A DNA stretch of 64,000 nt from Opitutia bacterium (GCA_003558065.1 PWMU01000050.1:11656-75655), one strand, 5' to 3'; counted from the first letter of the stretch, positions 11,765 through 63,772 are shown. A program made the numbers and translations. Notes: generated by a model from the sequence alone, not told the origin.

Positions 11765-11807
11765 CCCTTGGTGAAACCACAATCGCGGGGGCCGGTGGGG
11801 GCGTTCG

Positions 11808-50110: not shown

Positions 50111-50304
50111 GAGGCAACCAGGAGAAAAGAATCTTCCCCTTTCCTCAAGCGCAATTGTGGAGCCTTATCATCCGGCACGGCTCCGTGACCGGGCCGAAGA
50201 GGTTTTTTCTTTTGCATCGGCAGGGGGGCCGGGCTAACTTGGCATAAAGTGAAGAAACCCGATTCCGCGGGTTTCTGTGAAACGTAAAACCAAGAGGCAG
50301 AACA

Positions 50305-50736
50305 ATGCAGGAAGTGAAAGAAGGCGACACGGTCAAGGTGCACTACAAGGGAACGCTTGAGGACGGCGCTGTATTCGACGAGTCCAAGGACCGCGGTCCC
50401 CTTGAGTTCAAGGTGGGGGAGCGGAAGGTGATTCCCGGTTTCGAAGACGCGGTGGTCGGAATGAAGGAAGGCGAAACCAAGAAGGAAACGATTCCCAGCG
50501 AGAAGGCCTACGGTCCCCGCCGGGACGAGATGCTTTTGGAGGTGCCCCGCGAGCGGCTTCCGGAAGGAATGGAACCGGAGGTCGGCCAGCAATTACAGGT
50601 AACCACCAACGACGGTCAGCCCGTTCCGGTCCGGATTGCGAAGATTGAAGAGGAGAATGTTGTCCTCGACGCCAACCATCCCCTGGCCGGGAAGGATCTC
50701 GTTTTTGAGATGACTTTGGTGGAGATCGCCTCGTAG
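50305..50736 (+). CDS. slyD: FKBP-type peptidyl-prolyl isomerase, SlyD-like
   Basis: VKVHYKGTLEDGAVFDES...LEFKVGERKVIPGFEDAVVGMKEGE, plus an insert-in-flap region and DANHPLAGKDLVFEMTLVEI. Confidence 0.85.
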   Translation: MQEVKEGDTVKVHYKGTLEDGAVFDESKDRGPLEFKVGERKVIPGFEDAVVGMKEGETKKETIPSEKAYGPRRDEMLLEVPRERLPEGMEPEVGQQLQVTTNDGQPVPVRIAKIEEENVVLDANHPLAGKDLVFEMTLVEIAS

Positions 50737-50764
50737 GCCGGGTCTTTTCTTTTTGGGCGGGGGG

Positions 50765-51904
50765 TCAGCGTTTCGCTTCCTCCCGCTCAATAATATCCCA
50801 GGATTTTTCGATATAGAAACGGTAGTTCGCCAGCGGGGTTCCGTTCGGGATGCGGTGGTCGATGCCGAGTATGCAGCCGCCGGTGCGAACCATGGGCGGG
50901 ATCTTGTACTCCAGTTCCGCCGTGATGGCGGCTTGGTCCTTTCGCAGGACGTGCTTGTCGATGCCGCCCTGGAAGGCCAGGCGGGAGCCGTACTGTTCGC
51001 GGAGCTTCACAATGTCGTTGCCCCCGACGGGCTCCACGGGGCCCATCACGTTGAGGCCGGCCTCCAGAAAGCTTGGGATCAGTTTAGTCATGTCGCCGTC
51101 GGAGTCCTGGTAGAAGAGGCGGACCCCCCGGGCGCTCACGAGATCCCAGAGCCGGCGGTAATAGGGCACGATGTAGGCGTCCACCTGCTTCGGGCCGATC
51201 AGGGGACCGTTCTTTCCGGCCATGTCCTCGTGGATGTTGAGCTGGTCCACTGCAACTCGTGAAGTGACTCGGTCGAGGGTCCGGTGAGCGACGTCGCCGA
51301 TCGTTTCCAGCATCTCCCCGATCAGATCGGGCTGGGTGTAGAAGCTGATGCAGAGCTGTTCCTCGCCCATAAGCTGGCGAAGCTCGTCGAATCCGCCCGG
51401 AATCTTCGCCACAACGACCTTGCCCTCCTCGCGGGCGCGTTGGGCCGCAGCCTCCCAGCCTTCTTCGAATCGCTCTTCGGAAAAGGCATAGTGTTCCTTT
51501 ACCGCAAGCCAGGTGTCGCGGTCCTTGACCGGGTGATCCATCGGCAGCGGAAGGGTGGAGGCCTTCTTGGACAGCTTCATCTTCCGCCCCATTTTGTCGA
51601 GGGCGATGACGTAGTCCGCGGTTTCCTCAAGGATGGTGGTTTCCGGCCCCCCGATCCAGCCGGTGTGGACCGGGACCGAGGCCAGGATCGGGCTGCGGAA
51701 ACGAAACGCGGAAAAGTCCAGTTCCTCGGGGGTTGCGCCCTGTTGCGCCCATTCCTCCCGAAGGCCGGCAAGGGGGCCGAAGACTTCGGTAAAGAGCGTC
51801 CGCTGATTCCGGCGGAAGGTCATGTAATCGAGGTACTCCTCGCGCCGCACTCCCATGGTGCGTTTGATGGCCAGGGCGGCATGGGTTTCGCGAATGTCGT
51901 TCAT
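50765..51904 (-). CDS. Uroporphyrinogen-decarboxylase-family methyltransferase (MtaA/CmuA-like)
   Basis: 379 aa. The C-terminal GGCILGIDHRIPNGTP resembles the URO-D family GHGI motif. 4-nt overlap with the upstream activase gene. It is the last gene of the corrinoid operon. Confidence 0.6.
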   Translation of the reverse strand: MNDIRETHAALAIKRTMGVRREEYLDYMTFRRNQRTLFTEVFGPLAGLREEWAQQGATPEELDFSAFRFRSPILASVPVHTGWIGGPETTILEETADYVIALDKMGRKMKLSKKASTLPLPMDHPVKDRDTWLAVKEHYAFSEERFEEGWEAAAQRAREEGKVVVAKIPGGFDELRQLMGEEQLCISFYTQPDLIGEMLETIGDVAHRTLDRVTSRVAVDQLNIHEDMAGKNGPLIGPKQVDAYIVPYYRRLWDLVSARGVRLFYQDSDGDMTKLIPSFLEAGLNVMGPVEPVGGNDIVKLREQYGSRLAFQGGIDKHVLRKDQAAITAELEYKIPPMVRTGGCILGIDHRIPNGTPLANYRFYIEKSWDIIEREEAKR

Positions 51905-53466
51905 AGTTTTTCTGCTTTCTCGGGGGGTGATGCCCGCGAGGTTGCCGGTTTGCCCGGGAAGGTCATTTCTTCAACGAAAGTGTCCTGGAATCCCGGGTCC
52001 TGGCTGAGGGAGACGTGGACCACGCGTTTGCGAAGCGATTCGCAGGCCGATTCCGGATTTTCGGCGAAAAGGGAGATCTTGGCTCCCAGGAGAGCCGTGT
52101 TTCCCGAGGGGCGAAGCGCCTTGTCCGGGAAAGGCAGCAGCCCGATACGCAGGGCGCTGTCGAGACGAAGATAGTTGCCGAAGGCGCCCGCCATGAAGAC
52201 GTCGGTCAGGTTACGGGGGCGGATGTCGTTGGCGCGCATCAGGATCTTTGCCCCGGCCGCGATGGCGCCTTTGGCGAGCTGCAACTCGCGAATATCGCAC
52301 TGGTGGAGTTGCACGGGCGAAGAGAGAACCCAATTCTTTCCGCCGTGGGCGAAGCGGCCGTTGGGCAGAATCATGCCGAGATCGAGCCCCGCCGCCACCG
52401 CGTCCACCAGCCCGCTGCCGCAGATGCCGCGCGGGTCGACATCCCCGATCACACGGCAGCGCCAGGACTTCGCGCAGGGAACAACCTCCGCAATCGCGCC
52501 GGTGGACGCCCGCATTCCCATGGTGATGCGGGCCCCCTCGAAGGCGGGTCCCGCCGCTGTGGAGGCGCACACCATGCGGGAGCGATTGCCCACCACGACT
52601 TCGCCGTTTGTGCCGAGATCGAGAAAGACACCGGGCTTTTCGCGCCGGTCGAAACCCACCGCCAGCAGCCCCGCAAGGATGTCGCTGCCGACGAATCCTC
52701 CTATACACGGGAGAAAAACGACCGGGCAGCCGGCGGGGAGGCCGTTCCATCCCAGCCTTCCGGCGTCGAATCGCAGGGTGCCGGTGGCCTGCGTCTCGAA
52801 GGGGTAGCGCGAGAGCGGTTCCGTGTTGAGGCCGCCGAACAGGTGATGCATGGCGGTGTTTCCAACAAGGATCATCCGGTTGACGCGTTCCGCCTTTTCG
52901 GGGCCGGCTGCGGCAAGCAGATCCCTGACGAGTTCCGCAAGCTGTTTTCGGATGAGATTGGTGAGCGTGGTTCGGCCCTCAAATGTCATTGAGAATTCGA
53001 TACGACTCATAAGATCCGCGCCGAATCTGGCCTGGCGGTTGAGACCGCTTCGAACCGCGAGTACGTTGCCGTTTTCGAGGTCGACCAATTGGGCCACGAG
53101 GGTGGTGGTGCCGACATCGACCGCGATGCCGCATCCCGGGCGGGGAGAAAAAATGAAGTCGGTGTTGTCTCCCAGGACGGCGGCTTCCCATTGAGCCAGC
53201 TCGAGGGTCAGGTCGCTCTCGGCCCGGTGCCGGCAGGAGAGGCGCCAGCCGGCATTGACCCGGGAGTCGCCCAGGAGCCGGCGCTCCCCGGGGAACGCCG
53301 GCAGCCGTCCCTCCAGGACCCGGACACGGCAGCCTTTGCAGCGTCCCCGTCCGCCGCAGGGAAACTCGACGCCCTCCGCAAAAAGGGCATTGGCAAGCGG
53401 CGTGCCGGCGGGAACCGGAATGGTCTTGTCCAGTGGACGGAGCCGAATCAGAACGGAATTCTCCAT
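51901..53466 (-). CDS. Corrinoid reductive-activation enzyme (2Fe-2S ferredoxin domain + ASKHA/DUF4445 ATPase; RamA/RACE-like)
   Basis: ATG 53466 gives MENSVLIRLRPLDKTIPVPAGTPLANALFAEGVEFPCGGRGRCKGCRV (plant-type ferredoxin). GIAVDVGTTT...DLGTNGE are actin-fold phosphate motifs. Confidence 0.7.
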   Translation of the reverse strand: MENSVLIRLRPLDKTIPVPAGTPLANALFAEGVEFPCGGRGRCKGCRVRVLEGRLPAFPGERRLLGDSRVNAGWRLSCRHRAESDLTLELAQWEAAVLGDNTDFIFSPRPGCGIAVDVGTTTLVAQLVDLENGNVLAVRSGLNRQARFGADLMSRIEFSMTFEGRTTLTNLIRKQLAELVRDLLAAAGPEKAERVNRMILVGNTAMHHLFGGLNTEPLSRYPFETQATGTLRFDAGRLGWNGLPAGCPVVFLPCIGGFVGSDILAGLLAVGFDRREKPGVFLDLGTNGEVVVGNRSRMVCASTAAGPAFEGARITMGMRASTGAIAEVVPCAKSWRCRVIGDVDPRGICGSGLVDAVAAGLDLGMILPNGRFAHGGKNWVLSSPVQLHQCDIRELQLAKGAIAAGAKILMRANDIRPRNLTDVFMAGAFGNYLRLDSALRIGLLPFPDKALRPSGNTALLGAKISLFAENPESACESLRKRVVHVSLSQDPGFQDTFVEEMTFPGKPATSRASPPEKAEKL

Positions 53467-53492
53467 AGGGCTTAAGCTGCGGGACTCCTTTC

Positions 53493-54869
53493 TCAGGTGA
53501 GGCCGTATTCTTCCGGTAGATACGCGTTCGCGGGTATTTCTCCGGCCATGGCTTCGCGCATTTCGGCTTCGGTTTCGGGCAACTCGGTGACGGCGGATTC
53601 CATGCGTCCCAGCCACCGGGCCTCCCGGGGGGTCAGGTTCAGTGCCGCTTTCCGGTGCGCCCGGTCAAGGATCCGCCAGCCCGCACGGGCCGCGCGGATC
53701 GTTCGTTCGTAGGTTGTGGCTCCCGTCAGGATCTCCTCCGAAATTTCCAGGACGATGTCGGGCCGCAGCACGTAGGCCTGCGGGTCGAGAGAAGCATCGG
53801 ACGAGGCCAGCCAATCGCGCAGCGAGCGCGCGGCCTCCGGGGAGTCGTCCAAGGCGGCGTTGGCCAGCCGGCAATCATAGGCGAGCTGTTCCATGGATAC
53901 CACCGGTGCGTAACCGCTGAGCAGCCGAACATTGGCTACGGATTCGTTCGACCAGCAGTCGCAGACAGCTTGCGCGATGTTGCCGAGCGGGCTGGAGTGC
54001 GCGCAGGCGGACGAGCGGCCTTCCATCGAAATGGGAACCCCGGCGATGGCCTTCAGGAAGGGGCCTTCGTAGGCGCAGTCCTTGCTCGGCCCGCGGGCCC
54101 CCGTTTCAAAGGCGACCAGGCTTCGGGGAACGGAAATCACCCGTACCAATGCGGCGAATACCTTCGGGATCATCCCTTTCCACGCGAGCGTCATGGCCGT
54201 ATTGGCAAAGCCGCACGCCGTGTCCCCTGAAGGCACGACGTCCGTATTCCGGCAGCTCCGGACGATCTGTTCCCAGAGAAAGCCCATGTCGCGCGCGCCG
54301 AGAACCCCCAGGGCGAAAACGACGCGGCGGAGGTCCGCATTGACCAGGGCGTCATCACAGACCTCCTTGCCGCCCGTCGATTCAATGGCCAGAAGATCGG
54401 CGCCCGCCCGCCCGGCGCCGTCGAAGAAACGCACCATTTGCTCCCAGTGCTCGCCCCGGCGCATGAGCGGCGGCCGCCGGAATTCACGGGTGTCGTTGGG
54501 AGTGACCCGCAACGCCGTGGCGAGGCCGTGCCGATCGCTGAAGGCGGCGCAGTTCTCGGCGAGGATCCGGGTGATTTCCAGCCCCCATTCCGGAGTCTGC
54601 GTCATCGGCGGAAGCGTTTCGAACTCGACCACCACCGCGGGAACTTCCAGTTCGACCGCGTGGCGCAAAACGCCCCGGACCATCTCCTCGTACTGCCGCC
54701 GGATTTCATCCCAGTTGCGCCGGGTGACCTCGATTCCGGGCAGAGTGAAGTTGATTTCCGGAATCATGCGCCCCCCGCCGATTTCCACGCCTCGGCCGCA
54801 GGTGACCGGATGCGGTGCCCGTCCGAAGAGGAACGCGTCCAGCGATTCGACTGCCGGCTTGGTATTCAT
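53493..54869 (-). CDS. mtaB: Methanol:corrinoid methyltransferase MtaB-family protein
   Basis: It is colinear with my memory of Methanosarcina MtaB: IPEINF, IESTGGKEV, SGDTACGFANTAM, ISVPRSLVAFETGARGPSKDCAYE, MEGRSSACAHS, CDCWSNESV, LAYDCRLAN, DPQAYVL. ATG 54869. Confidence 0.75.
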   Translation of the reverse strand: MNTKPAVESLDAFLFGRAPHPVTCGRGVEIGGGRMIPEINFTLPGIEVTRRNWDEIRRQYEEMVRGVLRHAVELEVPAVVVEFETLPPMTQTPEWGLEITRILAENCAAFSDRHGLATALRVTPNDTREFRRPPLMRRGEHWEQMVRFFDGAGRAGADLLAIESTGGKEVCDDALVNADLRRVVFALGVLGARDMGFLWEQIVRSCRNTDVVPSGDTACGFANTAMTLAWKGMIPKVFAALVRVISVPRSLVAFETGARGPSKDCAYEGPFLKAIAGVPISMEGRSSACAHSSPLGNIAQAVCDCWSNESVANVRLLSGYAPVVSMEQLAYDCRLANAALDDSPEAARSLRDWLASSDASLDPQAYVLRPDIVLEISEEILTGATTYERTIRAARAGWRILDRAHRKAALNLTPREARWLGRMESAVTELPETEAEMREAMAGEIPANAYLPEEYGLT

Positions 54870-54891
54870 TGACCCGGGTGCGGGCGGATCG

Positions 54892-55527
54892 CTACGAGGC
54901 GACCAGTTTCCGGGCGATGCCGACCGCCGTGGCGGCACTGTCTCCGTAGGAATCGGCGCCGATTTCTTCGGCGTATTCGCGGGTGATCGGCGCGCCGCCG
55001 ATCATAATCTTCACGTTGCCGCGCACACCGGCTTCGTTGAGGGCCTCGATGGTGTTCTTCATTGACGGCATCGTCGTGGTCAGGAGAGCGGACATCGCCA
55101 CGATATCCGCCGATTCGTCCCGAATGGCTTCGATGAATTTCTCCGCTGAGACGTCGACACCGAGGTCGATGACTTCGAATCCCCCGCCTTCAAGCATGGC
55201 CGCGACCAGGTTCTTGCCGATGTCGTGAAGGTCGCCCTTGACGGTTCCGAGTACGACGCGTCCCTTCGGTTTTACCCCGGACGCCGTTAACAGGGGCCGG
55301 ATCTTCCCCAGGGCGCCCTTCATGGCGCGTGCGGCGATGAGCAACTCGGGCACGAAGAAATCGTTGGCTTCAAAGCGGCGCCCAACCTCGTCCATCGCCG
55401 GGATCATGTAGTCGTTAACCAGTGTTTGCGGATCCGTGCCCGCAGCCAGGGCTTCGTCCGTGACCGACCGGGCGGTATCGGCGTCGCCGTTCAGGACGGC
55501 GTCGTAAAGTTTGGTCCATTCGCTCAT
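54892..55527 (-). CDS. mtaC: Corrinoid (B12-binding) protein, MtaC/MtbC-like
   Basis: AAGGAG then ATG 55527. B12-binding-2 cap domain, then GTVKGDLHDIGKNLV (DxHxxG), ...MSALLTTTM..., GGAP. Confidence 0.85.
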   Translation of the reverse strand: MSEWTKLYDAVLNGDADTARSVTDEALAAGTDPQTLVNDYMIPAMDEVGRRFEANDFFVPELLIAARAMKGALGKIRPLLTASGVKPKGRVVLGTVKGDLHDIGKNLVAAMLEGGGFEVIDLGVDVSAEKFIEAIRDESADIVAMSALLTTTMPSMKNTIEALNEAGVRGNVKIMIGGAPITREYAEEIGADSYGDSAATAVGIARKLVAS

Positions 55528-55830
55528 TGAGTTATCTCCTTTTTCTCCAGTGGTGGACGCGGGACGTGACAGGACTCCAACTCTACCGGGTCCGGCGCCG
55601 GGGGTCTGCGCGAGGATTGTCAACGAAAGCGCAGATGTTGTCCGGCGTGCCGGTAGCTCTGAAATATACTTCCCTGCATCAAGTTTTCGGATTCTCCTGC
55701 CGCCCGTCTTCTAATTCATTCCCCTCTTGAGAGGGGGGACCAGCCGCAAGGCTGGTGGGGCGTGTCCGTTGCGCCGGCGATACCCATCGTTCCATCGATC
55801 TACTCGCTATATTCGAGTACCAGTCGTTCC

Positions 55831-55861
55831 GGGAGTTTGTCGGGCTTCGCCGACAGGCTGC
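55831..55861. repeat. Short hairpin repeat, copy 2, abutting the stop codon of the HTTM gene
   Basis: gggagtttgtcgggcttcgccgacaggctgc. Stem CTGTCGG/CCGACAG with a GCTTCG loop. Confidence 0.55.
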
Positions 55862-56862
55862 TAGTGATCCGGCAGAGCGGCGGATTCGGGTTGGTTTTCC
55901 CGGGGAGGGCCGGTCTGCGGAATTCCTGTTTCGGCGTAGAGGGTTGAGGAGAACGAGGTCCAGTCCTGTTTGAAGGCGAAGCTTCGCTGCAGGCCCAGGT
56001 AGGCATTTGATTGGTCGACCACGCCGGAACGATCAGATTGGTCGAGCACACCGAAATGATCATTGATGTTGGCCGCGAGCATCAGGCAGAGGGCGAAACC
56101 GGCAAAGACGTGGCGGCAACGTTCGGCGCGTATGAAGGCGCGTGTGGGGAGTTCGTGGGATGGCGGGGGAGCGTAAAGGATTTCCGGGGCGATTCTTGAG
56201 TTGATGCGGAGTTTTCGTTCCCGTATCCGTTTCCTAATGTCGCTCACCTGCTTCCAGAACCGGGGCGGCAGGAGGGCGGCCAGCCCGGCCAGAACCGCCG
56301 CCGGCAGGAGACCGGGCTGAAAATTCAGGGCCTGGCCCGCCTGATACAGGGCGAAGGAAAAGAGGAGCAGGAACAGCTGGATCGAGAGTCCCGCGGTTGC
56401 GGGCGAGCAGTAAAGACTGCTGTCGTCCCGGGTGCGCACGCGCAGACGCAGGTCGAGCGACCAGCGTGCGCCCAGGGGGAGGAGCCATCCCCAAAACAGG
56501 AGAAGGAGCAAAAGCCGGTCCCCGGCGGTCAGGACCAGCCCGTTCTGCCAATTGAGGGAAACGAGAAGAATCCAGGAAACAAAGGCTGCCGTCCGGGTTC
56601 GCCAGCCGAAAATCAACAGTACGGCGAAAACCGCGGCCAGCCCCATCAGCGTCGTGCCGAGGAATCCGGAATCGTTCAGAATCGACAGTTGAAAATGCCA
56701 CGGCGAAACGGTCTGGACGGTTCCATCAATCACCGTACCCCTGTTGACAACCCGAAGCCCGCTCAGGCGAGCCAGCAGATCAGCCAGAAGAACGGTTCCC
56801 AGCAGAACACGAAAAAGGGCGAGGGATCTGAGATCCAGGCCGAAGACAGGGCGCAGGTTCAT
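55861..56862 (-). CDS. HTTM-domain (vitamin-K-carboxylase-like / SdpB-like) integral membrane protein
   Basis: LDLRSLALFRVLLGTVLLADLL opening typical of HTTM domains, with multiple TM segments. Confidence 0.55.
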   Translation of the reverse strand: MNLRPVFGLDLRSLALFRVLLGTVLLADLLARLSGLRVVNRGTVIDGTVQTVSPWHFQLSILNDSGFLGTTLMGLAAVFAVLLIFGWRTRTAAFVSWILLVSLNWQNGLVLTAGDRLLLLLLFWGWLLPLGARWSLDLRLRVRTRDDSSLYCSPATAGLSIQLFLLLFSFALYQAGQALNFQPGLLPAAVLAGLAALLPPRFWKQVSDIRKRIRERKLRINSRIAPEILYAPPPSHELPTRAFIRAERCRHVFAGFALCLMLAANINDHFGVLDQSDRSGVVDQSNAYLGLQRSFAFKQDWTSFSSTLYAETGIPQTGPPRENQPESAALPDH

Positions 56863-57108
56863 CCGGAGGCCGTTGGTTGGTGTTGGTGTGACGCCGCGCG
56901 GGGGAAGACAGCGTCGTGAGCCTCAAATATACCGAATAACAGGTGCTGAAGCCAAGCTTTGTTCGTATGCAAGTCGTTGATTTATAGTTTTTTTACTAAA
57001 ATCGCTTCCCTGCGGAAGCGCGTCCCCGTCAGCCTGCCGCCCTGACGGATCTGAACCGCTGCGCGGGGCGGGCCGAGGCGGCAACCCGGGGGTTTCGATT
57101 AAGACCAT

Positions 57109-58842
57109 TTGCAGGAATGGGGGGAACGGATTATTTTAGAAGCCGTGAGTGGACGACGACAGGAGAGAAACCGGGAGCCCGATAACCGACGCCGCGAGGA
57201 GGGGCCCGCCGACGCGCCGTTGAATCCCGAGGCGCGGCTCGAGCGGATGTCGGCGTTGCAGTTGATCGACCTGGTTTCCGGGCAGATGCGGGGGGCGGAA
57301 GCGGCGCCGCACCGGCCCTTGCGTCACCTCCGCTATCGCGTGCAGGAGCTCGAGGAGATTCGCGAACAGGCACAGGGTGCTTTGGCGGAGCTGAACGAGG
57401 CGGTGGAAAAGTTGCGCGCTCCGGCGTTGAGGCTGGGGACCTTGCTGCGGCGGATCGGCAGGGACCGGGCATTGATCTGCGTCGGCGGGGGTGAGTATGT
57501 CTGCAACCTTGACCCGTCGCTTCCCGAGGCGGTGCTGGAGAGCGGGATGCGGGTGCTCCTCAACGAAGCCTACGCGGTGACCGATTCCTTCGGCCTCGAC
57601 AAGAGCGGGCCGGTGGTCCGGTTGACCGAGGCGCTGTCCGACGGGCGCCTTCGGGTTGGCCAGGAGGCCGGAATATCGGATTCGGTGGTCATTCTCTCGG
57701 ACGCGTTGCGGAAGGAGACCTTGAAACCCGGCATGGAGTTGCGTCTCGACGCCAATCAGCGCGTGGCGGTCGAAATCGTCGCGCCGGCCCGAAAGTTCGA
57801 CCGGTCGCTGTCGACGGTCGAGCCGATTCTCTGGAGTGATATCGGGGGGCAGGATTCGGCGGTTCAGGCGATCCGCGATTCGATCGAGATGCCGATTCTG
57901 CACGCAAGCCTTTTCGAGCGTTTCGAGCACCCGGTACCCAAGGGCTTCCTGTTGTATGGACCGCCGGGATGCGGGAAAACCTTGTTGGGCAAGGCCACGG
58001 CTCATAACCTGCGCCGCCAGATCGAGGCCGAAACCGGCGAGGACCGGCCTGAATATTTCCTCAGCGTCAAGGGCCCCGAGATTCTCAACATGTGGGTCGG
58101 CGAATCGGAACGGCAGGTTCGCGAACTGTTTGGCCAGTGCCGGGAGAAGGCCGAAGAGGGGCACTTGGCGTTTCTCTTCATTGACGAGGCCGAGTCGGTT
58201 CTCGGCACCCGTCACGGGGGTCGCGTCGGGAACGCGATCATTTCGACGCTGGTACCGATGTTCTGTGCGGAGATGGACGGGATGGAAGCGTTGCGCAATG
58301 TCGTGGTGATCCTGGCGTCCAACCGGGCCGACCTCATCGACCCCGCCATCCTCCGTCCCGGCCGGATCGATCGCAAGATTCGCGTCCGTCGCCCGAACCG
58401 CGAGGCGGGCAGGGAAATTTACAGCATTTACCTGAACGAACGGCTTCCCGTGGCGGAAGAGCGCGACCGTCTAATCGAGGCGGTGACCGAAGCCCATTTT
58501 GCGGAGAGCGAGGAAAACCGCTTCCTCGAGGTCGGCTACCGAAGCGGACGCAAGGAATACCTTCACCGCGGCGATCTTGCAAGCGGCGCGATAATCGCCG
58601 CCATCGTGGAGCGGGCCAAGGAGCTGGCGATCAAGCGGAGCGTGCTTACCGGCTCGGAGTCGGGGATTACACGCGAGGATTTGCTGACCGCTTTCGAGCA
58701 CGAGTACCGCGAGAACGAACTTTTCCCCCCGACCGATATTACGGAGGACTGGCTCAAACTCACCGATTTCGATCCGGAGAACGTCGTGCGATTGACCCCT
58801 TACCGCCAGCGTAGCGACAGGGAACGGCAGACCTCGATATGA
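57109..58842 (+). CDS. mpa: Proteasome-associated AAA ATPase (Mpa/ARC homologue)
   Basis: Walker A LLYGPPGCGKTLLGKA, Walker B AFLFIDEAESV, ILRPGRIDRKIRV. N-terminal heptad segment LRYRVQELEEIREQAQGALAELNEAVEKLRAP, then an OB-like region, colinear with my memory of M. tuberculosis Mpa. The track start is TTG 57109. GTG 57145 or ATG 57247 are equally possible. Confidence 0.85.
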   Translation: MQEWGERIILEAVSGRRQERNREPDNRRREEGPADAPLNPEARLERMSALQLIDLVSGQMRGAEAAPHRPLRHLRYRVQELEEIREQAQGALAELNEAVEKLRAPALRLGTLLRRIGRDRALICVGGGEYVCNLDPSLPEAVLESGMRVLLNEAYAVTDSFGLDKSGPVVRLTEALSDGRLRVGQEAGISDSVVILSDALRKETLKPGMELRLDANQRVAVEIVAPARKFDRSLSTVEPILWSDIGGQDSAVQAIRDSIEMPILHASLFERFEHPVPKGFLLYGPPGCGKTLLGKATAHNLRRQIEAETGEDRPEYFLSVKGPEILNMWVGESERQVRELFGQCREKAEEGHLAFLFIDEAESVLGTRHGGRVGNAIISTLVPMFCAEMDGMEALRNVVVILASNRADLIDPAILRPGRIDRKIRVRRPNREAGREIYSIYLNERLPVAEERDRLIEAVTEAHFAESEENRFLEVGYRSGRKEYLHRGDLASGAIIAAIVERAKELAIKRSVLTGSESGITREDLLTAFEHEYRENELFPPTDITEDWLKLTDFDPENVVRLTPYRQRSDRERQTSI

Positions 58843-58912
58843 ACGCTTACAGTTTCGGGACGATTCTCACGGGTCGCCCGACAGAAGCTGGAGGCACGCT
58901 GATGGAGAAAAA

Positions 58913-60448
58913 GTGGAGATACAATTCGGTATAGAAACGGAGTACGGAATCAGCCGGCAGCAGGAGCAACCGATCGACGTGGTGGCCGAGTCCATCGCGC
59001 TGGTCCGGAGCGCCGTTTCGCCGGGCGTGCGCATGTGCTGGGACTACTCAAAGGAGGACCCGCATCTCGATATGCGCGGGTTCCGGGTCCAGGAATTGCG
59101 GCAGGACACCGACGAAACCTTTTATTCGGCCGAGGACGTACGGCGCCAGCTGACTTTCCGCGAGATCAAAAGCGACTTGGTGCTCTCGAACGGAGCCCGT
59201 TTCTACAACGATCATGCCCACCCGGAGTACTGCACCCCGGAATGCACCACGCCGCTTGAGATCCTCCAGCAGGAAGTGGTGGGTGAGCGCATACTGACGG
59301 GATGTGCCCTTGCCCTGCAGGAAAAGACCGGAGTGCCGGTTTTGCTTTATAAAAACAACACCGACTTTTTCGGGCACAGTTACGGCTGCCACGAGAATTA
59401 TTTGATCCCGAGAACCCTCCCTTGGGCGAAGCTCTCCGAGAATATTCTGGCATTCCTGGTTACCCGGCAGCTCTATTGCGGAGCGGGAAAATACGCATGG
59501 GAGGAAGAGGACCGGTTTCTCAAGGGAAGATTCCAGATTTCCCAGAGAAGCGATTTTTTCACAGTGCTCCAAAGTGTGGATACGATGCAGCGGCGGCCGC
59601 TGATCAATACGCGGGACGAACCCCACGCGGACGCCGGACGGTTTCGGCGTTTTCATGTTATCCTGGGCGACTCCAACCTCTCTCCGTACGCGGCCTACTT
59701 GAAGATTGGAGTGACCGCGCTGGTTCTGCAGGCTCTGTGCCGCGCCGGACCGGGAGCGCGGGTGCCGCGACTGGACAAACCGATCGATGCGGTGAAAGCG
59801 ATCTCTCGCGACACCGCTTTCCGCTGGGAGATCAACCGGGAGGACGGCCGCCCGACAAACGCGATCGAGGTCCAACGGAGTTACCTGATGCTGGTCCGCC
59901 GTTACCTGTTTGAGAGTGACGGCGAGGAATGGCGGCGCGTTACCGATGCCTGGGAGGAGATTCTGAATGATCTTGATGCCGATCCGCTGTCCACCGCGGA
60001 TCGCCTGGACTGGAGCGCCAAGTACCGGCTCATCGAGGACTTTCGCGACCGGGAAGGCGTCGAGTTGGACGATCCCTGGGTGCGGAGCCTCGACCTTGCC
60101 TACCACCGTCTGGATCCGGACGAGGGCCTTTACCTCAACCTGATGGACCAGGGGGCGTTTCGGCTGCCTTATTCCGCCGCAGAGATCTATGAAAAGGGGC
60201 TGGAGCCGCCGGCGAGCACCCGTGCGGCGGTACGGGGGCTTTGCGTGAAGAAGTTCGGCCCCCGGATTTATGAAACGCAGTGGGAGCACCTGGGGTTCCA
60301 GGGTGAAACCACCGGCCGCTTCATTCTCGATCTGCGCGACCTGTTTGCTCCGGGGGATATCGCGAAAGCGATTCGGTTTATTGAGGGCACCGAACGGGTC
60401 GACGATTTGAGAGCGCTTCCGTTTGCAAAAGAGCGAAATCGCGGTTAA
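58913..60448 (+). CDS. dop: Dop-like Pup-ligase-family enzyme (deamidase/depupylase homologue)
   Basis: GTG start, VEIQFGIETEYG. The insertion RMCWDYSKEDPHLDMRGFRV matches the Dop-specific loop (Mtb Dop RTRWDYEVESPLRDARGF, from memory). HAHPEYCTPEC, YKNNTD..GHSYGCHENY, FQISQRSDF, INTRDEPHAD. Confidence 0.85.
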   Translation: MEIQFGIETEYGISRQQEQPIDVVAESIALVRSAVSPGVRMCWDYSKEDPHLDMRGFRVQELRQDTDETFYSAEDVRRQLTFREIKSDLVLSNGARFYNDHAHPEYCTPECTTPLEILQQEVVGERILTGCALALQEKTGVPVLLYKNNTDFFGHSYGCHENYLIPRTLPWAKLSENILAFLVTRQLYCGAGKYAWEEEDRFLKGRFQISQRSDFFTVLQSVDTMQRRPLINTRDEPHADAGRFRRFHVILGDSNLSPYAAYLKIGVTALVLQALCRAGPGARVPRLDKPIDAVKAISRDTAFRWEINREDGRPTNAIEVQRSYLMLVRRYLFESDGEEWRRVTDAWEEILNDLDADPLSTADRLDWSAKYRLIEDFRDREGVELDDPWVRSLDLAYHRLDPDEGLYLNLMDQGAFRLPYSAAEIYEKGLEPPASTRAAVRGLCVKKFGPRIYETQWEHLGFQGETTGRFILDLRDLFAPGDIAKAIRFIEGTERVDDLRALPFAKERNRG

Positions 60449-60457
60449 ATTTTCTTT

Positions 60458-60637
60458 ATGGCTGATCCAACCAGACGAGTAAAACCAACCGCCCCCTCGC
60501 CGGGCGGGGGAGGAGACGACGGAGGCGGTCCTTCTTCCCCGAAAGTCAACAAGCCAAAAACGGAGGAGCTTCTCAAGAAGATGCGCAAGGTCGATCCTGA
60601 CCAGTCCCGCCGCTACCGGCAACGGACCGGGGAGTGA
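60458..60637 (+). CDS. ubact: Pup-like small protein modifier, UBact type (59 aa)
   Basis: Not in the ORF track (<60 aa). ATG 60458 lies 9 nt after the dop stop, and the TGA is at 60635..60637. MADPTRRVKPTAPSPGGGGDDGGGPSSPKVNKPKTEELLKKMRKVDPDQSRRYRQRTGE has a Gly/Pro-rich disordered N-terminal half, a basic helical C-terminal half and a terminal Gly-Glu. It occupies the exact pup position between dop and prcB. Confidence 0.8.
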   Translation: MADPTRRVKPTAPSPGGGGDDGGGPSSPKVNKPKTEELLKKMRKVDPDQSRRYRQRTGE

Positions 60638-60830
60638 CCGGCAGGTGATCCCGCCGCTTTCCCGCCTTGCGTTTTGCTCCCCTAACGGGGATGTTGCCCG
60701 TTGCGGGTCTGCGGGTGCGGGTTTCAGACGCCGGAATCCTTATTCTCTCCCACACCTGCGAAACCCGGCCCTCAACCCTTGCCCGTCCTCGACACCCTGA
60801 AACCAGAAACCTGACGCCCGCGCATCCGCC

Positions 60831-61592
60831 ATGAACGGAGACTTCCTCTCCCTCCTCTCATCGAATCCGTTTTCCGGCCTTACGGTCGGCGAAAACTGTC
60901 CCCAGTTGCTCGAGGCGACCACGGTGTTCGCCTTCCATTTTTCCGAGGGCGTGGTCATGGCGGGCGACCATCGCGCGACCGCTGGGAACGTGGTGTTTTC
61001 CGATCGAACGGAGAAGATAATCGAGCTGGACAATCAGTCTCTGATCGCCATCGCGGGATCGCCGGCGGTGGCTTTCGAGATGGCACGAACGCTGCAAACG
61101 ACTTTCGAGTTCTACCGGCGAAGCCAACTGCAGGTACTCAGCCTCCCGGCCAAAGTCCGGGCGTTGTCGCGTCTCCTCCGCGACAACCTCCCGGGAACGC
61201 TCCAGGGGGTGGGCGCGGTTGCGCCGCTCTTTGCGGGGAGGGAGCCGGACGGCGATTCACCGCCGGGCATTTACTACTACGATCCGCTGGGCGCGCAGTT
61301 CGAGGCCGCCGGTTACGCGGCTTCCGGGTCCGGGTCCGGCAGTATTCGCAGCGTTCTTCACTACTTGACCCAATGGGGGAATCCGCGACCGGAGAAAAGG
61401 GATCGCGGCGAGGCGATCAACCTGGCCAACCGGCTCCTGCTGACCGCCGCCCAGTTCGATACCGCCACCGGCGGGGTCGATCCGTCCCGGCAGGTTTTCG
61501 CCACCATCCGGCTCCTCACCGCCGACGGCATTCATACGGTGACCGAGAAAGAGCAGGCGGCGGCCTGGAAGAAGGGAGGGGCCAATGATTGA
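60831..61592 (+). CDS. prcB: Proteasome beta subunit (PrcB) with a 29-aa propeptide
   Basis: ...QLLEA|TTVFAFHFSEGVVMAGDHRATAGNVVFSDRTEKII. Numbering from the first Thr (codon at 60918..60920) gives Thr1, Asp17 and Lys33, the canonical Ntn-hydrolase triad. SGSGS is present further on. Confidence 0.85.
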   Translation: MNGDFLSLLSSNPFSGLTVGENCPQLLEATTVFAFHFSEGVVMAGDHRATAGNVVFSDRTEKIIELDNQSLIAIAGSPAVAFEMARTLQTTFEFYRRSQLQVLSLPAKVRALSRLLRDNLPGTLQGVGAVAPLFAGREPDGDSPPGIYYYDPLGAQFEAAGYAASGSGSGSIRSVLHYLTQWGNPRPEKRDRGEAINLANRLLLTAAQFDTATGGVDPSRQVFATIRLLTADGIHTVTEKEQAAAWKKGGAND

Positions 61593-62310
61593 AGAACCGT
61601 ACCGGTGGCTCGAAGCGGTGGCCAACCGTCGCGAGTACATCCAGGACCAGCTCAGCGGTGCCACGCCGGTATTCGCCGTTTCCCGTCCCGAAGGGGTTTT
61701 CCTGCTCGGTGCGGGCCCCGGACGGTCGAAAGTGTTCGAGATCTACAACCGTCACGGCATGGCCGCCCTCGGCAATCCGGTCGATATCGAGAAGCTGCGC
61801 CAGGCAGTCATTGAAACCGCTCACCTCGAGGGGTTTAACCGGTCGGCGGACGATGTGACCCTGCGGCGCCTGGTCGGGTTTTCCATAAGTAATTCCCTCA
61901 AGAGCGCGTTCGAACAGATCGTCGCCGCGCCGCTCATTGTCGAGGCCCTCTTTGCCGAATGCGGGGCGACCCGCGAGGAGGACCTTCTCGTGCGGGTCCG
62001 CTTCGACGGGAGGCCGGAATACGCGACGGACGGTGTCTGCCTCGCATTTCCCGACCGTGATCGCGAGCGCGCCGCCGGCGAGTGGTTGCGGGGCCGATTG
62101 AGCGACTCGGACGGCCTCGGCCGGGTACGCGGGCTTTGCCTCACGGCCTGGTCGGCCCTGGTGGACGGCAAGGAGGATTTCGAAGCATTGAAGGTTCAGG
62201 AACCCCTTCCTTCCTCGCTCGCGAAACACGGCCTGGAAAGTGCCCTGATCGACCGGGCGAGCCCGGGGCCGGCCCAGTACCGGTCGCTTGCCGAAGGGGA
62301 GTTTCAGTAG
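61585..62310 (+). CDS. prcA: Proteasome alpha subunit (PrcA)
   Basis: 8-nt overlap with prcB. 241 aa with no N-terminal Thr. PVFAVSRPEGVFLLG...KVFEIYNRHGMAALGNPVDIEKLRQ is consistent with bacterial alpha subunits. The call rests mostly on position and weak similarity. Confidence 0.7.
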   Translation: MIEEPYRWLEAVANRREYIQDQLSGATPVFAVSRPEGVFLLGAGPGRSKVFEIYNRHGMAALGNPVDIEKLRQAVIETAHLEGFNRSADDVTLRRLVGFSISNSLKSAFEQIVAAPLIVEALFAECGATREEDLLVRVRFDGRPEYATDGVCLAFPDRDRERAAGEWLRGRLSDSDGLGRVRGLCLTAWSALVDGKEDFEALKVQEPLPSSLAKHGLESALIDRASPGPAQYRSLAEGEFQ

Positions 62311-62362
62311 GGCGTCCCGGGCTTGCGAGGCAGGTCCGGGCGCGCATAATCCGGGAGCGGGC

Positions 62363-63772
62363 ATGAATCACGGAAACGGCAATGGAAAGCGGGTGATCGG
62401 CCTGGAAACCGAATACGGTTGTCTTGCCGACCGCGACCTCGACCTGAGTCAGGTTTTGACCGAGGTTCGGAACTGGGTGTTCGAAGGCGGGCGCTTCGGG
62501 ATGATCGACCTGTATGAGCGCGAATGGGATGAGCCGGCGGGAAACGGGGGGTTTCTGTTCAACGGCGGGAGGCTCTACATCGACATGGGCCACATCGAGT
62601 ACTGCACGCCCGAATGTCTGAACGCCCGCGACGCCGTGCGTTACGACCGGGCGGGGGACCGGTTGCTGCAGACGGCAGTCCGGGCGCTGGGCTACGAAGG
62701 GCGGGTATTCTTCATTCGGAACAACATCGATCATCACACCGGCGCTACCTTCGGGTGCCATGAGAACTTCTCGATGGACCGTCTGGCTCCTTTCAGTGAA
62801 GCCAATATTCTTTCACTGCTCGCGTTCCTGACGCTCCGCCTCCTGTACACGGGAGCGGGTCGCGTGGGGGCCGCGGGGGGGCGTTTTTCGGTCGGTTGGC
62901 CCGACCAGGAGCCCGTCTTCGAGGGATTTCAATTGAGCCAGCGGGCGGATTATGTGCAGAACGATTTCTACGAGTGGGTGCAGCACAACCGTGCCATCGT
63001 CAATACGCGGGACGAGCCGCTTGCGGACCCTCTTGCTTACAGACGCCTTCACCTGCTTCACGGCGATACGAATGTCTTTCCGGCTACCACTTTCCTTAAG
63101 CTCGGGACGACCAGGCTGGTTCTTGACCTTCTCGAAGCCGATGCGCTTCCGCCGGTGGTCCTGCAGGATGCGGTGAGCGCTTTGCGCCGGATTTCGCGCC
63201 AGACCGATCCTCCCTGGCGGGTGCGTGACAGCCGTGGGCGGGAACGGGATGTGATTGATCTTCTGGACCGTTACCGGCGCGCGGCCGCCAGGTGCTTTTC
63301 CGGGCGCAATGAGGAAACGGATACGCTTCTGGAATTATGGGGGGACACCCTTGAGGGCCTCGCCCGCGGTGATGCCGGGGAGCTTGCCGGCCGAATCGAC
63401 TGGGTCGGCAAGCGCGAGCTGCTCGATGCTTTTCGCCGCGAGCAGGGGCTGGGTTGGAACGATCCCTGGATGCAGTCCCAGGATCTTGAGTTTCATCACA
63501 TTGATCCCCAGCGCGGACTCGGCTGCGCGTTGGCGGATTGCGACGGATTTTGGGCGACCGGTTGTATTGAAAATGCCATGACAGAGCCGCCCGAGGGATC
63601 AAGGGCCGGGGCCCGGAGCCGTCTGATGCGGGAAATTGAAAAGTCCGGCGGCCGTTATCACCTCGACTGGGACAGGGTCAATTTCCCGGGCGGCCGGACC
63701 TTTTGCATGAAGGATCCCTTCGAGACCCGCGCCGATCACCAGGAGACGTCCGGGTCGACGTCCTTTTCGTAG
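62363..63772 (+). CDS. pafA: PafA-like modifier ligase (Pup-ligase family)
   Basis: KRVIGLETEYG. No Dop-type loop. FLFNGGRLYIDMGHIEYCTPEC, GATFGCHENF, FQLSQRADY, VNTRDEPLAD. The C-terminal FCMKDPF is like Mtb PafA LCKDPF (memory). ATG 62363 is preferred over track start 62288, which overlaps prcA. Confidence 0.85.
   Translation: MNHGNGNGKRVIGLETEYGCLADRDLDLSQVLTEVRNWVFEGGRFGMIDLYEREWDEPAGNGGFLFNGGRLYIDMGHIEYCTPECLNARDAVRYDRAGDRLLQTAVRALGYEGRVFFIRNNIDHHTGATFGCHENFSMDRLAPFSEANILSLLAFLTLRLLYTGAGRVGAAGGRFSVGWPDQEPVFEGFQLSQRADYVQNDFYEWVQHNRAIVNTRDEPLADPLAYRRLHLLHGDTNVFPATTFLKLGTTRLVLDLLEADALPPVVLQDAVSALRRISRQTDPPWRVRDSRGRERDVIDLLDRYRRAAARCFSGRNEETDTLLELWGDTLEGLARGDAGELAGRIDWVGKRELLDAFRREQGLGWNDPWMQSQDLEFHHIDPQRGLGCALADCDGFWATGCIENAMTEPPEGSRAGARSRLMREIEKSGGRYHLDWDRVNFPGGRTFCMKDPFETRADHQETSGSTSFS

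What the first reader, a model, noticed from the sequence alone, without database searches (positions are those of the whole stretch)
50765..55527. Methanol-type corrinoid methyltransferase operon (MtaC, MtaB, RamA-like activase, MtaA-like) in a polysaccharide degrader
Four tightly packed minus-strand genes make up the operon:
- a B12-binding protein with DxHxxG (GDLHDIGKN)
- a protein colinear with methanogen/acetogen MtaB, including the motifs I remember around the zinc ligands (IESTGGKE, GDTAC, SKDCAYE, CDCWSNES)
- a 2Fe-2S plus ASKHA reductive activase
- a URO-D-family methyltransferase

Two of the genes overlap by 4 nt (51901..51904).

This is the toolkit for anaerobic, cobalamin-dependent methyl transfer from methanol or a methoxylated substrate. 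It is best known from methanogens and acetogens, not from sulfatase-rich PVC-type heterotrophs.

One hypothesis is that methanol released from methyl-esterified or O-methylated polysaccharides is captured here. The pectate-lyase-fold and DUF4838-like enzymes in this window would fit that idea. The final methyl acceptor (THF, or a CoM-like thiol) is not evident.
Basis: partly seen in the sequence, partly recalled or inferred. Interest (0 to 1): 0.65.

Follow-up and report, generated by a model that had tools for sequence, protein, structure and literature searches.

The report
Bacterial methanol-corrinoid methyltransferase operon, odd partner
A sugar-eating PVC-type bacterium from soda-lake sediment carries a real vitamin-B12-dependent operon for taking the methyl group off methanol, but the fourth gene is not the expected MtaA, so where the methyl group goes is unknown.

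Summary
The four minus-strand genes are real and lie exactly where stated. Three are solid: a B12-binding corrinoid protein (MtaC type), a full-length MtaB with all three zinc ligands, and a bacterial RACo-type reductive activase.

The fourth gene is only a distant URO-D-superfamily protein. It scores 21.6 bits against the MtaA model (cutoff 400). At the positions of MtaA's His/Cys/Cys zinc ligands it has Asp/Asp/His. Its orthologues elsewhere are almost always stand-alone. It is still kept in the same four-gene order in three lineages, and its sister clade sits inside mtaCB clusters of other phyla.

The operon is not exotic. This MtaB clade has thousands of database members in Verrucomicrobiota, Planctomycetota, Kiritimatiellales, Armatimonadota, Acidobacteriota, Sumerlaeota and Chloroflexota. 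An MtaB in Verrucomicrobia was noted in 2008.

Acetogen-type Bacillota loci pair MtaB with a pterin-binding (folate) methyltransferase. Non-Bacillota loci pair it instead with URO-D paralogues or a stand-alone homocysteine S-methyltransferase.

Most likely this is a methanol-capturing corrinoid module with an unconventional downstream partner, not acetogen- or methanogen-style methylotrophy. Verdict: a new variant of a known kind, of moderate interest.

The parts
54892..55527 (-). Corrinoid (B12-binding) protein, MtaC type, 211 aa. It carries the DxHxxG (GDLHDIGKN), SxL (MSALL) and GG (MIGGAP) motifs.
   Evidence: PF02607 85.9 bits and PF02310 111.7 bits. The best NCBIfam models are the MtgC / methyltransferase-cognate-corrinoid types, all below their equivalog cutoffs. 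The motifs are read from the translation.
53493..54869 (-). MtaB, the methanol:corrinoid methyltransferase (MT I), 458 aa.
   Evidence: PF12176 518.2 bits, full length. E 1.5e-83 to M. barkeri MtaB 2I2X_A. The zinc ligands E/C/C are conserved in all 83 aligned sequences. 101 of 111 columns invariant in methanogen plus acetogen-type MtaBs are retained. About 52% identical to Neomoorella MtaB and 35.7% to M. barkeri MtaB.
51901..53466 (-). RACo/AcsV-type ATP-dependent reductive activase of corrinoid proteins: an N-terminal 2Fe-2S ferredoxin domain, a middle domain and an ASKHA domain. 521 aa.
   Evidence: PF00111 32.5, PF17651 152.7 and PF14574 220.4 bits. NCBIfam AcsV 299 bits (cutoff 800) and archaeal RamA TIGR04270 135 bits (cutoff 500). 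The cysteine pattern CGGRGRCKGC...C is visible.
50765..51904 (-). Divergent URO-D-superfamily TIM-barrel protein of the 'DxDG' clade, 379 aa. It is translationally coupled to the activase gene. It is a candidate corrinoid-dependent methyltransferase with an unknown substrate or acceptor, and it is not MtaA.
   Evidence: PF01208 46 bits. MtaA_Meth 21.6 bits. AlphaFold model pLDDT 93.4. Foldseek gives URO-D and MtaA 4AY7 a near-tie at E about 1e-10, TM 0.58-0.65, 14-16% identity. D267/D269/E291/D349-H350 occupy the zinc-ligand positions. The four-gene order is conserved in L011 and in L171/L172.
51901..51904 (-). ATGA stop/start overlap between the activase gene and the URO-D-like gene.
   Evidence: The sequence AAAACTATGAACGAC read on the minus strand.

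Best explanation
The operon encodes a working bacterial methanol-activating corrinoid module.

1. MtaB uses its Glu/Cys/Cys zinc site to polarise methanol and hands the methyl group to Co(I) of the MtaC-type corrinoid protein.
2. The RACo-type activase uses a 2Fe-2S cluster and ATP to re-reduce inactive Co(II) to Co(I).
3. The fourth gene belongs to a distinct URO-D-superfamily branch that has replaced the MtaA-type zinc ligands (Asp-x-Asp...His instead of His-x-Cys...Cys). It is most likely the operon's second methyltransferase, taking the methyl group from CH3-Co(III)-MtaC to an acceptor that is neither shown nor predictable. Folate, homocysteine or another small molecule are the candidates.

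Physiologically this is methyl-group capture or salvage by a saccharolytic PVC heterotroph. It is not acetogen- or methanogen-type energy metabolism.

Shown here: family membership, catalytic residues, gene order and its conservation. Inferred: methanol as the substrate, the role of the fourth protein, and the physiological sink.
For: MtaB, MtaC and RACo:
- Strong family matches.
- Zinc ligands conserved in all 83 aligned MtaB sequences.
- 101 of 111 reference-invariant MtaB columns retained.
- About 52% identity to Neomoorella MtaB. The Moorella thermoacetica mtaA1B1C1 cluster is induced about 2^9-fold on methanol (PMC13391211). That the Neomoorella protein is its orthologue is my inference.
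- MtaC is adjacent to MtaB in 53 of 82 homologous loci.

Fourth gene, tied to the module in this lineage:
- ATGA overlap with the activase gene.
- Identical MtaC-MtaB-RACo-URO-D order in three lineages, at MtaB identity 100, 78 and 72%. L171 has different flanking genes.

Fourth gene, its wider clade:
- Its sister clade (26-32% identical, same D-x-D-G / E / D-H residues) sits directly inside MtaC-MtaB-(URO-D)-RACo clusters of Hinthialibacteria, Chthonomonadales and MAG LL3.bin17.
- The fold is the URO-D/MtaA barrel. This superfamily contains known corrinoid methyltransferases of both directions (PMC10418091).

Not acetogen-like:
- No pterin-binding MT II lies in the operon. Neomoorella MtaA is PF00809, and pterin-binding neighbours occur only in 8 Bacillota loci.
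- The window's MtaB falls in a PVC/Armatimonadota/Acidobacteriota clade, apart from the Bacillota clade.
Against: - No biochemistry exists for any member of this MtaB clade or of the URO-D-like clade.
- Orthologues of the URO-D-like protein (at least 509 bits) are almost never next to corrinoid genes. In 37 metagenome loci of at least 8 kb, MtaC was nearby in 1, MtaB in 0 and RACo in 0. Guilt by association therefore holds only in this lineage and for the sister clade.
- The carboxylate-rich site is unlike any characterised corrinoid methyltransferase.
- MtaB scores below NCBI's equivalog cutoff (384 vs 720).
- Cobalamin supply and the genome's C1 pathways could not be checked.
- The promoter and terminator scans were at chance level, so the transcription unit is inferred from spacing alone.
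Confidence: 0.55

Rival explanations
1. This is a canonical MtaABC methylotrophy system. The URO-D protein is a true MtaA (MT II) that passes methyl to folate or a CoM-like thiol. It feeds catabolic C1 oxidation or acetogenesis from pectin-derived methanol.
For: - The four functions MT I, corrinoid protein, activase and a URO-D-fold protein are all present.
- The sulfate reducer D. kuznetsovii uses MtaB, MtaC and two MtaA proteins for methanol (PMC5770442).
- Methanol from pectin is a recognised anoxic substrate (PMC8048578).
Against: - MtaA model score is 21.6 bits against a cutoff of 400.
- The His/Cys/Cys zinc triad is replaced by Asp/Asp/His, while true H/C/C paralogues exist next to MtaB in other phyla.
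- Acetogen MT II is a 270-aa pterin-binding protein, which is absent here.
- No Wood-Ljungdahl, folate-C1 or pectin methylesterase gene was found in 64 kb.
Confidence: 0.12
2. The URO-D-like protein is a second substrate-specific MT I, for example for an O-methylated sugar, uronic acid or aromatic ether released from polysaccharides. It loads the same MtaC as MtaB does. The methyl-accepting MT II is encoded elsewhere in the genome.
For: - The URO-D superfamily includes the aryl O-demethylases OdmB/VdmB and CmuA-type MT I enzymes (PMC10418091).
- One corrinoid protein and one MT II can be shared by several MT I enzymes (PMC13391211).
- Related clusters hold up to three URO-D paralogues plus a separate homocysteine methyltransferase that could fill the MT II role.
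- Orthologues lie in arrays of URO-D paralogues beside beta-helix (pectate-lyase-like), sulfatase and GH2 genes.
- The acidic active site (HED, DSD, E, DKH, DH) would suit binding of hydroxyl-rich substrates.
Against: - No such enzyme has been characterised.
- Most orthologues have no corrinoid protein within 10 kb.
- No substrate can be inferred from sequence.
Confidence: 0.2
3. The module is anabolic. Methanol methyl groups go via CH3-MtaC to homocysteine, a folate-independent, methanol-driven methionine synthesis. The step is catalysed either by the URO-D-like protein or by a methyltransferase encoded elsewhere.
For: - Stand-alone PF02574 homocysteine S-methyltransferases (213-258 bits) are embedded in mtaCB clusters of 11 non-Bacillota loci, including a PVC MAG (L026) whose isolate name (CSSed11_284R1) points to the same soda-lake sampling series.
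- Corrinoid-protein-fed 'core' methionine synthases are established (PMC7857596, PMC7005905).
- Ruegeria pomeroyi couples glycine-betaine demethylation to methionine synthesis through one corrinoid protein in an aerobe (PMC12478193).
- The URO-D fold is related to MetE.
Against: - No PF02574 gene lies in this operon or window.
- The URO-D-like protein lacks the Cys-rich zinc site that all known homocysteine- or thiol-methylating enzymes use.
- The link was not found described in the searched literature.
Confidence: 0.15
4. The URO-D-like gene is a functionally unrelated passenger, and/or this MtaB clade acts on a substrate other than methanol.
For: - Orthologues of the fourth gene are overwhelmingly stand-alone.
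- MtaB is below NCBI's equivalog cutoff and only 35.7% identical to the structurally characterised enzyme.
- MtaB occurs as an orphan gene in several relatives.
Against: - The four-gene order is conserved at 72-100% MtaB identity, with changed flanks in L171, and the two genes overlap as ATGA.
- The sister URO-D clade recurs inside mtaCB clusters.
- MtaB keeps its zinc ligands and 101 of 111 reference-invariant columns.
- All characterised MtaB enzymes use methanol, with ethanol only at trace level (PMC12450230, listed).
Confidence: 0.1

Closest known systems
Acetogen methanol methyltransferase system MtaA/MtaB/MtaC (Moorella thermoacetica, Acetobacterium woodii, Eubacterium callanderi)
   Same: MtaB is about 50-53% identical, with the same zinc ligands. 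An MtaC-type corrinoid protein sits directly upstream. A bacterial RACo/OdmC-type activating enzyme is needed.
   Different: Acetogen MT II is a roughly 270-aa pterin-binding protein (PF00809) that methylates tetrahydrofolate. This operon has none and carries a URO-D-fold protein instead. The window's MtaB lies in a separate clade of heterotroph phyla.
Methanosarcina MtaABC (MtaB-MtaC complex 2I2X; MtaA 4AY7) with RamA
   Same: Same MtaB fold family and the same Glu/Cys/Cys zinc site. MtaC has His-on B12 binding. The partner has a URO-D-type barrel fold.
   Different: MtaB is only 35.7% identical. The fourth protein is 14-15% identical to MtaA and lacks its His/Cys/Cys zinc site. The activase is the bacterial 2Fe-2S RACo type, not archaeal RamA. 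Coenzyme M is not expected in such bacteria (my knowledge).
Type 1 mlp gene clusters (Kountz & Balskus 2023, PMC10418091)
   Same: [quoted passage not shown] They lack a folate methyltransferase, so the acceptor is unknown.
   Different: Mlps are about 30% identical to MtaA/MtbA and sit within the coenzyme M methyltransferase (MtaA/MtbA/MtsA) branch of the superfamily. They come mostly from obligately anaerobic Firmicutes and have no MtaB. Here the URO-D protein is far more divergent, its zinc ligands are replaced, and MtaB is present.
Corrinoid-protein-dependent methionine synthesis (core MetE/Mes families, PMC7857596; MtgBCD of Ruegeria pomeroyi, PMC12478193)
   Same: A substrate:corrinoid methyltransferase plus a corrinoid protein feeds a non-folate methyl acceptor step in ordinary heterotrophs. 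Related mtaCB clusters carry a stand-alone homocysteine methyltransferase.
   Different: No homocysteine-binding (PF02574 or MetE-type) protein lies in this operon. The donor here would be methanol, a combination I did not find described.
Desulfotomaculum (Desulfofundulus) kuznetsovii methanol methyltransferase operon (PMC5770442)
   Same: A non-acetogenic, non-methanogenic bacterium that uses MtaB, MtaC and URO-D-type MtaA proteins for methanol.
   Different: Its MtaB groups with methanogen MtaB in that paper's tree. Its operon includes B12-synthesis genes. The organism oxidises the methyl group with sulfate as electron acceptor.

Membership tests
MtaB (PF12176, methanol:corrinoid methyltransferase) | Full-length match to the family profile above the curated cutoff. 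| tested here: met
   518.2 bits against a cutoff of 25, covering profile positions 5-460 of 460.
MtaB (PF12176, methanol:corrinoid methyltransferase) | Zinc ligands Glu164, Cys220 and Cys269 (M. barkeri numbering; ligand identities from my memory of the 2I2X paper). | tested here: met
   All three align to E/C/C in the window protein and in all 83 aligned sequences.
MtaB (PF12176, methanol:corrinoid methyltransferase) | NCBIfam equivalog-level score (MtaB_Meth NF040651). | tested here: not met
   384.3 bits against a cutoff of 720. The model name suggests it is tuned to methanogen sequences, and bacterial MtaBs are only about 36% identical to M. barkeri MtaB.
MtaB (PF12176, methanol:corrinoid methyltransferase) | Adjacent cognate corrinoid protein. 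| tested here: met
   The MtaC-type gene lies 22 nt upstream. The same pairing occurs in 53 of 82 homologous loci.
MtaB (PF12176, methanol:corrinoid methyltransferase) | Methanol-dependent methylation of Co(I) corrinoid. | not testable with these tools
   Needs an enzyme assay.
MtaC-type corrinoid protein (PF02607 + PF02310) | B12-binding cap and Rossmann domains with the DxHxxG, SxL and GG motifs. | tested here: met
   85.9 and 111.7 bits. GDLHDIGKN, MSALL and MIGGAP are in the translation.
MtaC-type corrinoid protein (PF02607 + PF02310) | Equivalog-level assignment to methanol-specific MtaC. | tested here: not met
   MtaC_Meth 135.5 bits against 420. The best model is MtgC_2 at 217 bits against 370. 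Specificity cannot be read from the sequence.
RACo/AcsV bacterial reductive activase of corrinoid enzymes | The architecture 2Fe-2S ferredoxin domain + RACo middle domain + ASKHA C-terminal domain. | tested here: met
   PF00111, PF17651 and PF14574 all score above their cutoffs, in that order along the protein.
Archaeal RamA (TIGR04270) | Score above the subfamily cutoff. | tested here: not met
   135.2 bits against 500. The protein works like RamA but belongs to the bacterial RACo type.
MtaA / methylcobamide:CoM methyltransferase (URO-D superfamily coenzyme M methyltransferase branch) | Family-model score (NF040654 MtaA_Meth; PRK06252). | tested here: not met
   21.6 bits against 400, and 31.5 bits against 244. 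No phmmer or profile match to MtaA in the PDB.
MtaA / methylcobamide:CoM methyltransferase (URO-D superfamily coenzyme M methyltransferase branch) | His-x-Cys ... Cys zinc site that activates the thiol acceptor (ligand pattern from my knowledge, checked against paralogues in the alignment). | tested here: not met
   The aligned positions are D267, D269 and H350. MtaB-linked paralogues in Kiritimatiellales, Terriglobia and Bacteroidales show H, C and C at those positions.
MtaA / methylcobamide:CoM methyltransferase (URO-D superfamily coenzyme M methyltransferase branch) | URO-D-type (beta/alpha)8 barrel fold. | tested here: met
   AF2 model pLDDT 93.4. Foldseek hit 4AY7_A at E 7e-11 with TM 0.58/0.65, but URO-D itself scores equally well.
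Uroporphyrinogen decarboxylase (HemE) | Pfam PF01208 match and the conserved C-terminal His (human H339). | tested here: inconclusive
   46 bits, above the 23.9 cutoff. H350 aligns with the URO-D His. Identity to solved URO-Ds is only 11-17%, and the gene sits in a corrinoid methyltransferase operon, not a haem operon.
Pterin-binding methyl-corrinoid:tetrahydrofolate methyltransferase (acetogen MtaA, PF00809) | Presence of a PF00809 gene in or near the operon. | tested here: not met
   None among the ORFs of the window that were scanned. It is present next to MtaB in 8 Bacillota loci.

The most novel reading that the evidence does not exclude
Across many non-acetogenic heterotrophic phyla (PVC, Armatimonadota, Acidobacteriota, Chloroflexota, Ignavibacteria), MtaB/MtaC form a folate-independent methyl-capture system. 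It passes methanol-derived methyl groups to homocysteine, giving methanol-driven methionine synthesis, or to other acceptors. The 'DxDG' URO-D proteins, including the one here, would be a new class of corrinoid-dependent methyltransferases that work without the His/Cys zinc site. They might also demethylate O-methylated sugars released from polysaccharides.
Probability: 0.2. Interest if true: 0.75.

Novelty: new variant of a known kind. Interest (0 to 1): 0.45.

Why it matters
Methanol is a major product of pectin and algal polysaccharide decay. Its anaerobic consumption is usually credited only to methanogens, acetogens and a few sulfate reducers.

If the thousands of MtaB genes in saccharolytic PVC, Armatimonadota, Acidobacteriota and Chloroflexota genomes are active, primary polysaccharide degraders may keep part of the methanol methyl pool for themselves. 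That would change methanol budgets and mtaB-based inferences of methylotrophic methanogenesis or acetogenesis in metagenomes.

The operon also gives a defined four-protein set in which to test what an uncharacterised URO-D clade with altered zinc-ligand positions does.

Tried and rejected
- Sequence searches of the URO-D-like protein against solved structures found nothing useful. Single-sequence phmmer gave no hit. The profile search gave only URO-D at E 0.003.
- I looked for conserved neighbours of the URO-D-like orthologues in 80 metagenome loci. Nothing recurrent emerged beyond other URO-D paralogues.
- The Rfam scan of the whole window found no family at all, so no cobalamin riboswitch and no tRNA.
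- The promoter and terminator scan of 50200-57200 was at chance level.
- I tried to name the organism from cluster members of eleven window proteins. None carries a name. The taxon is therefore inferred only from the closest labelled relative.
- Literature searches for MtaB in PVC, Acidobacteria or Armatimonadetes, and for corrinoid demethylation of methylated sugars, returned nothing specific. The exception was the 2008 remark on Opitutaceae TAV2.
- I rejected the idea that conserved C344 is the third zinc ligand. It aligns with Tyr or Phe in most paralogues, and the true third-ligand position is 350.

Full report
**Observation**

The region 50765-55527 holds four tightly packed minus-strand genes, exactly as described.

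| Gene | Coordinates | Length |
|---|---|---|
| Corrinoid protein (MtaC type) | 54892-55527 | 211 aa |
| MtaB | 53493-54869 | 458 aa |
| Reductive activase (RACo type) | 51901-53466 | 521 aa |
| URO-D-family protein | 50765-51904 | 379 aa |

- The gaps between genes are 22 and 26 nt. The last two genes overlap as ATGA at 51901-51904.
- The window is a sibling assembly of NCBI contig SLSS01000036.1 (GCA_007130315.1). It differs by 32 mismatches in 20,508 bp, and the public contig has the same gene calls.
- The closest labelled relative is 'Verrucomicrobia bacterium T3Sed10_319'. The next-closest hits include MAGs whose isolate names begin with 'CSSed'. From memory, these isolate names belong to Siberian soda-lake sediment metagenome series.
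- The surrounding genes are those of an ordinary heterotroph: a sugar-type ABC transporter, glutamate dehydrogenase, a Pup/UBact-proteasome cluster, one sulfatase and a DUF4838 protein.
- No Rfam family, and so no B12 riboswitch, was found in the window.

**The three well-supported parts**

*MtaB*
- It matches PF12176 end to end at 518 bits, and M. barkeri MtaB (2I2X) at E 1.5e-83.
- The Glu/Cys/Cys zinc ligands are conserved in the window protein and in all 83 aligned sequences.
- 101 of 111 columns that are invariant among M. barkeri plus acetogen-type MtaBs are retained.
- Identity is 35.7% to M. barkeri, about 52% to Neomoorella, about 50% to Acetobacterium and 77% to the nearest relative.

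*Corrinoid protein*
- It has both B12-binding domains and the DxHxxG/SxL/GG motifs.

*Activase*
- It has the bacterial RACo/AcsV architecture (2Fe-2S + middle + ASKHA domains). It is not the archaeal RamA type.

All three score below NCBI's narrow equivalog cutoffs. For MtaB this probably reflects a model tuned to methanogen sequences. For the corrinoid protein it means substrate specificity cannot be read from the sequence.

**The fourth gene is not MtaA**

- It reaches only 46 bits on PF01208 and 21.6 bits on MtaA_Meth, whose cutoff is 400.
- It has no sequence match to solved MtaA.
- A confident AlphaFold model (pLDDT 93.4) is a URO-D-type barrel. It matches URO-D and MtaA 4AY7 equally well: E about 1e-10, TM 0.58-0.65, 14-16% identity. 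MetE follows further behind.
- I aligned it with URO-D paralogues collected from related loci. The H-S-C-G zinc motif of the MtaA-type paralogues falls on D-S-D-G (D267, D269) in this protein.
- The third-ligand position is Cys in H/C/C-type paralogues next to MtaB in Kiritimatiellales, Terriglobia and Bacteroidales. Here it is H350, preceded by D349. E291 is retained.
- The protein belongs to a large clade of 3,181 database hits. Members are 60-67% identical across Verrucomicrobia, Armatimonadota, Planctomycetes, Chloroflexi and Sumerlaeota. They are named only 'hypothetical' or 'URO-D family'.

**Is the fourth gene part of the system?**

Against:
- In 37 metagenome loci of at least 8 kb that carry an orthologue (509-587 bits), an MtaC gene is nearby in 1, MtaB in 0 and RACo in 0.
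- These orthologues have no conserved neighbours except other URO-D paralogues (also 18-20).

For:
- The exact order MtaC-MtaB-RACo-URO-D recurs in L011 (MtaB 78% identical) and in L171/L172 (72% identical). L171 has different flanking genes.
- In the window the gene is translationally coupled to the activase gene.
- Its sister clade is 26-32% identical and shares the same WED/HED, DxDG, E, K and DH residues. That clade lies directly inside mtaC-mtaB-(URO-D)-RACo clusters of Hinthialibacteria, Chthonomonadales and MAG LL3.bin17.

I conclude that it is probably a corrinoid-dependent methyltransferase. Neither its direction (MT II or a second MT I) nor its substrate is shown.

**How common is this?**

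Very common.
- It finds at least 569 loci in species-representative genomes, and that list was also capped.
- The best hits come from Verrucomicrobiota, Sumerlaeota, Hinthialibacteria, Armatimonadota, Planctomycetota, Acidobacteriota and Kiritimatiellales.
- Chloroflexota, Bacteroidota, Ignavibacteria and Bacillota, including acetogens, score somewhat lower.
- In a neighbour-joining tree rooted on M. barkeri, the window groups with the PVC/Armatimonadota/Acidobacteriota sequences, apart from the Bacillota clade.
- Databases already name these proteins 'methanol--corrinoid methyltransferase'.
- A 2008 genome paper noted an MtaB homologue in Opitutaceae TAV2 (PMC2474590).
- A 2024 MAG survey simply counted mtaB in 1.6% of MAGs (PMC11264602).
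- I found no study of what these heterotrophs do with the enzyme.

**A pattern in the neighbours**

I clustered the same-strand neighbours of MtaB across the 80 genome loci.

| Neighbour of MtaB | Loci | Where |
|---|---|---|
| Pterin-binding MT II (PF00809), the acetogen MtaA of about 270 aa (consistent with PMC13391211) | 8 | Bacillota only |
| Stand-alone homocysteine S-methyltransferase (PF02574, about 290 aa) | 11 | Non-Bacillota only: Chthonomonadales, Terriglobia, Pontiellaceae, a 'PVC group' MAG (CSSed11_284R1), Anaerolineae, Ignavibacteria |

- The PF02574 genes often occur together with DUF1638, CobW-type GTPase, URO-D and RACo genes.
- This suggests that outside the acetogens the methyl group leaves the corrinoid protein for a non-folate acceptor. 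In some lineages that acceptor would be homocysteine.
- There are precedents for corrinoid-protein-fed methionine synthesis (PMC7857596, PMC7005905) and for a dual glycine-betaine/methionine system in aerobes (PMC12478193).
- The window's own operon has no PF02574 gene, so this remains a lead for the family, not a finding for this locus.

**Verdict**

MtaB, MtaC and the activase are right. 'MtaA-like' is not: a defining feature was tested and not met. The implied rarity is overstated.
- The best model is a methanol-activating corrinoid module with an unconventional URO-D-superfamily partner, serving methyl capture in a saccharolytic PVC bacterium (confidence 0.55).
- The main rivals are: a second MT I for O-methylated substrates (0.2); anabolic methanol-to-methionine transfer (0.15); canonical catabolic MtaABC (0.12); and a passenger gene or a non-methanol substrate (0.1).
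- The genome-wide questions (cobalamin supply, Wood-Ljungdahl and folate genes, pectin methylesterase) could not be addressed with one contig.
- Novelty: a new variant of a known kind. Interest: moderate.

Noticed in passing
Related loci L014, L015, L022, L025, L026, L030, L037, L043, L060, L081, L085 (for example L025:11836-12732, L026:9476-10360): A stand-alone homocysteine S-methyltransferase of about 290 aa (PF02574, 213-258 bits) is embedded in mtaC-mtaB clusters of non-Bacillota phyla. Pterin-binding MT II genes occur only in Bacillota loci. This hints at methanol-driven, folate-independent methionine synthesis, which I did not find described in the searched literature.
   Followed up: partly
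window 57109-63772 (+), small ORF 60458-60637: A Pup/UBact-proteasome cluster: an Mpa/ARC-type AAA ATPase, two Pup-ligase-family genes (Dop/PafA-like) and proteasome subunits. A 59-aa ORF ends in ...YRQRTGE, a Pup/UBact-like C-terminal tag.
   Followed up: partly
window 55861-56862 (-): A 333-aa predicted membrane protein with no Pfam match lies 333 nt upstream of the operon on the same strand. Whether it belongs to the operon is unknown. It is present in the sibling contigs.
   Followed up: no
L002/L003/L013 (Hinthialibacteria OLB16), about 7150-15800: A larger cluster with the order MtaC-MtaB-URO-D-URO-D-DUF1638-MT-A70-URO-D-RACo. It pairs three URO-D paralogues and an MT-A70 methyltransferase with a single corrinoid protein.
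   Followed up: partly
L025, L028, L033, L034, L039 and many Bacillota loci, directly downstream of MtaB: A CobW/HypB/UreG-type GTPase (PF02492) is a frequent immediate neighbour of MtaB, in 18 loci. It could be a metallochaperone for the MtaB zinc site or for the corrinoid. It is absent from the window operon.
   Followed up: no
L007 (5.37-Mb contig), L104, L118, L101: Orthologues of the URO-D-like protein sit in arrays of three to five URO-D paralogues. In L007 the array lies beside beta-helix (pectate-lyase-like) and sulfatase genes, and in L010 a GH2 gene lies nearby. This family has expanded strongly in saccharolytic bacteria and has no known function.
   Followed up: partly
window 12202-16194 (+), 7152-8894 (-), 995-2629 (-), 19023-20699 (-), 26129-27970 (-): Several long ORFs (544-1330 aa) have no Pfam match at E <= 0.001.
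   Followed up: no
whole window: There is no Rfam hit at gathering threshold in 64 kb, so no tRNA and no riboswitch. Many long antisense ORFs overlap real genes, as expected at about 60% G+C; they are artefacts.
   Followed up: yes
L171 6520-9288: In the third lineage that carries the same four-gene operon, the downstream gene is a 2-oxoglutarate dehydrogenase E1 (SucA-type). This suggests the operon also occurs in organisms with an oxidative TCA cycle, meaning not strict fermenters.
   Followed up: no
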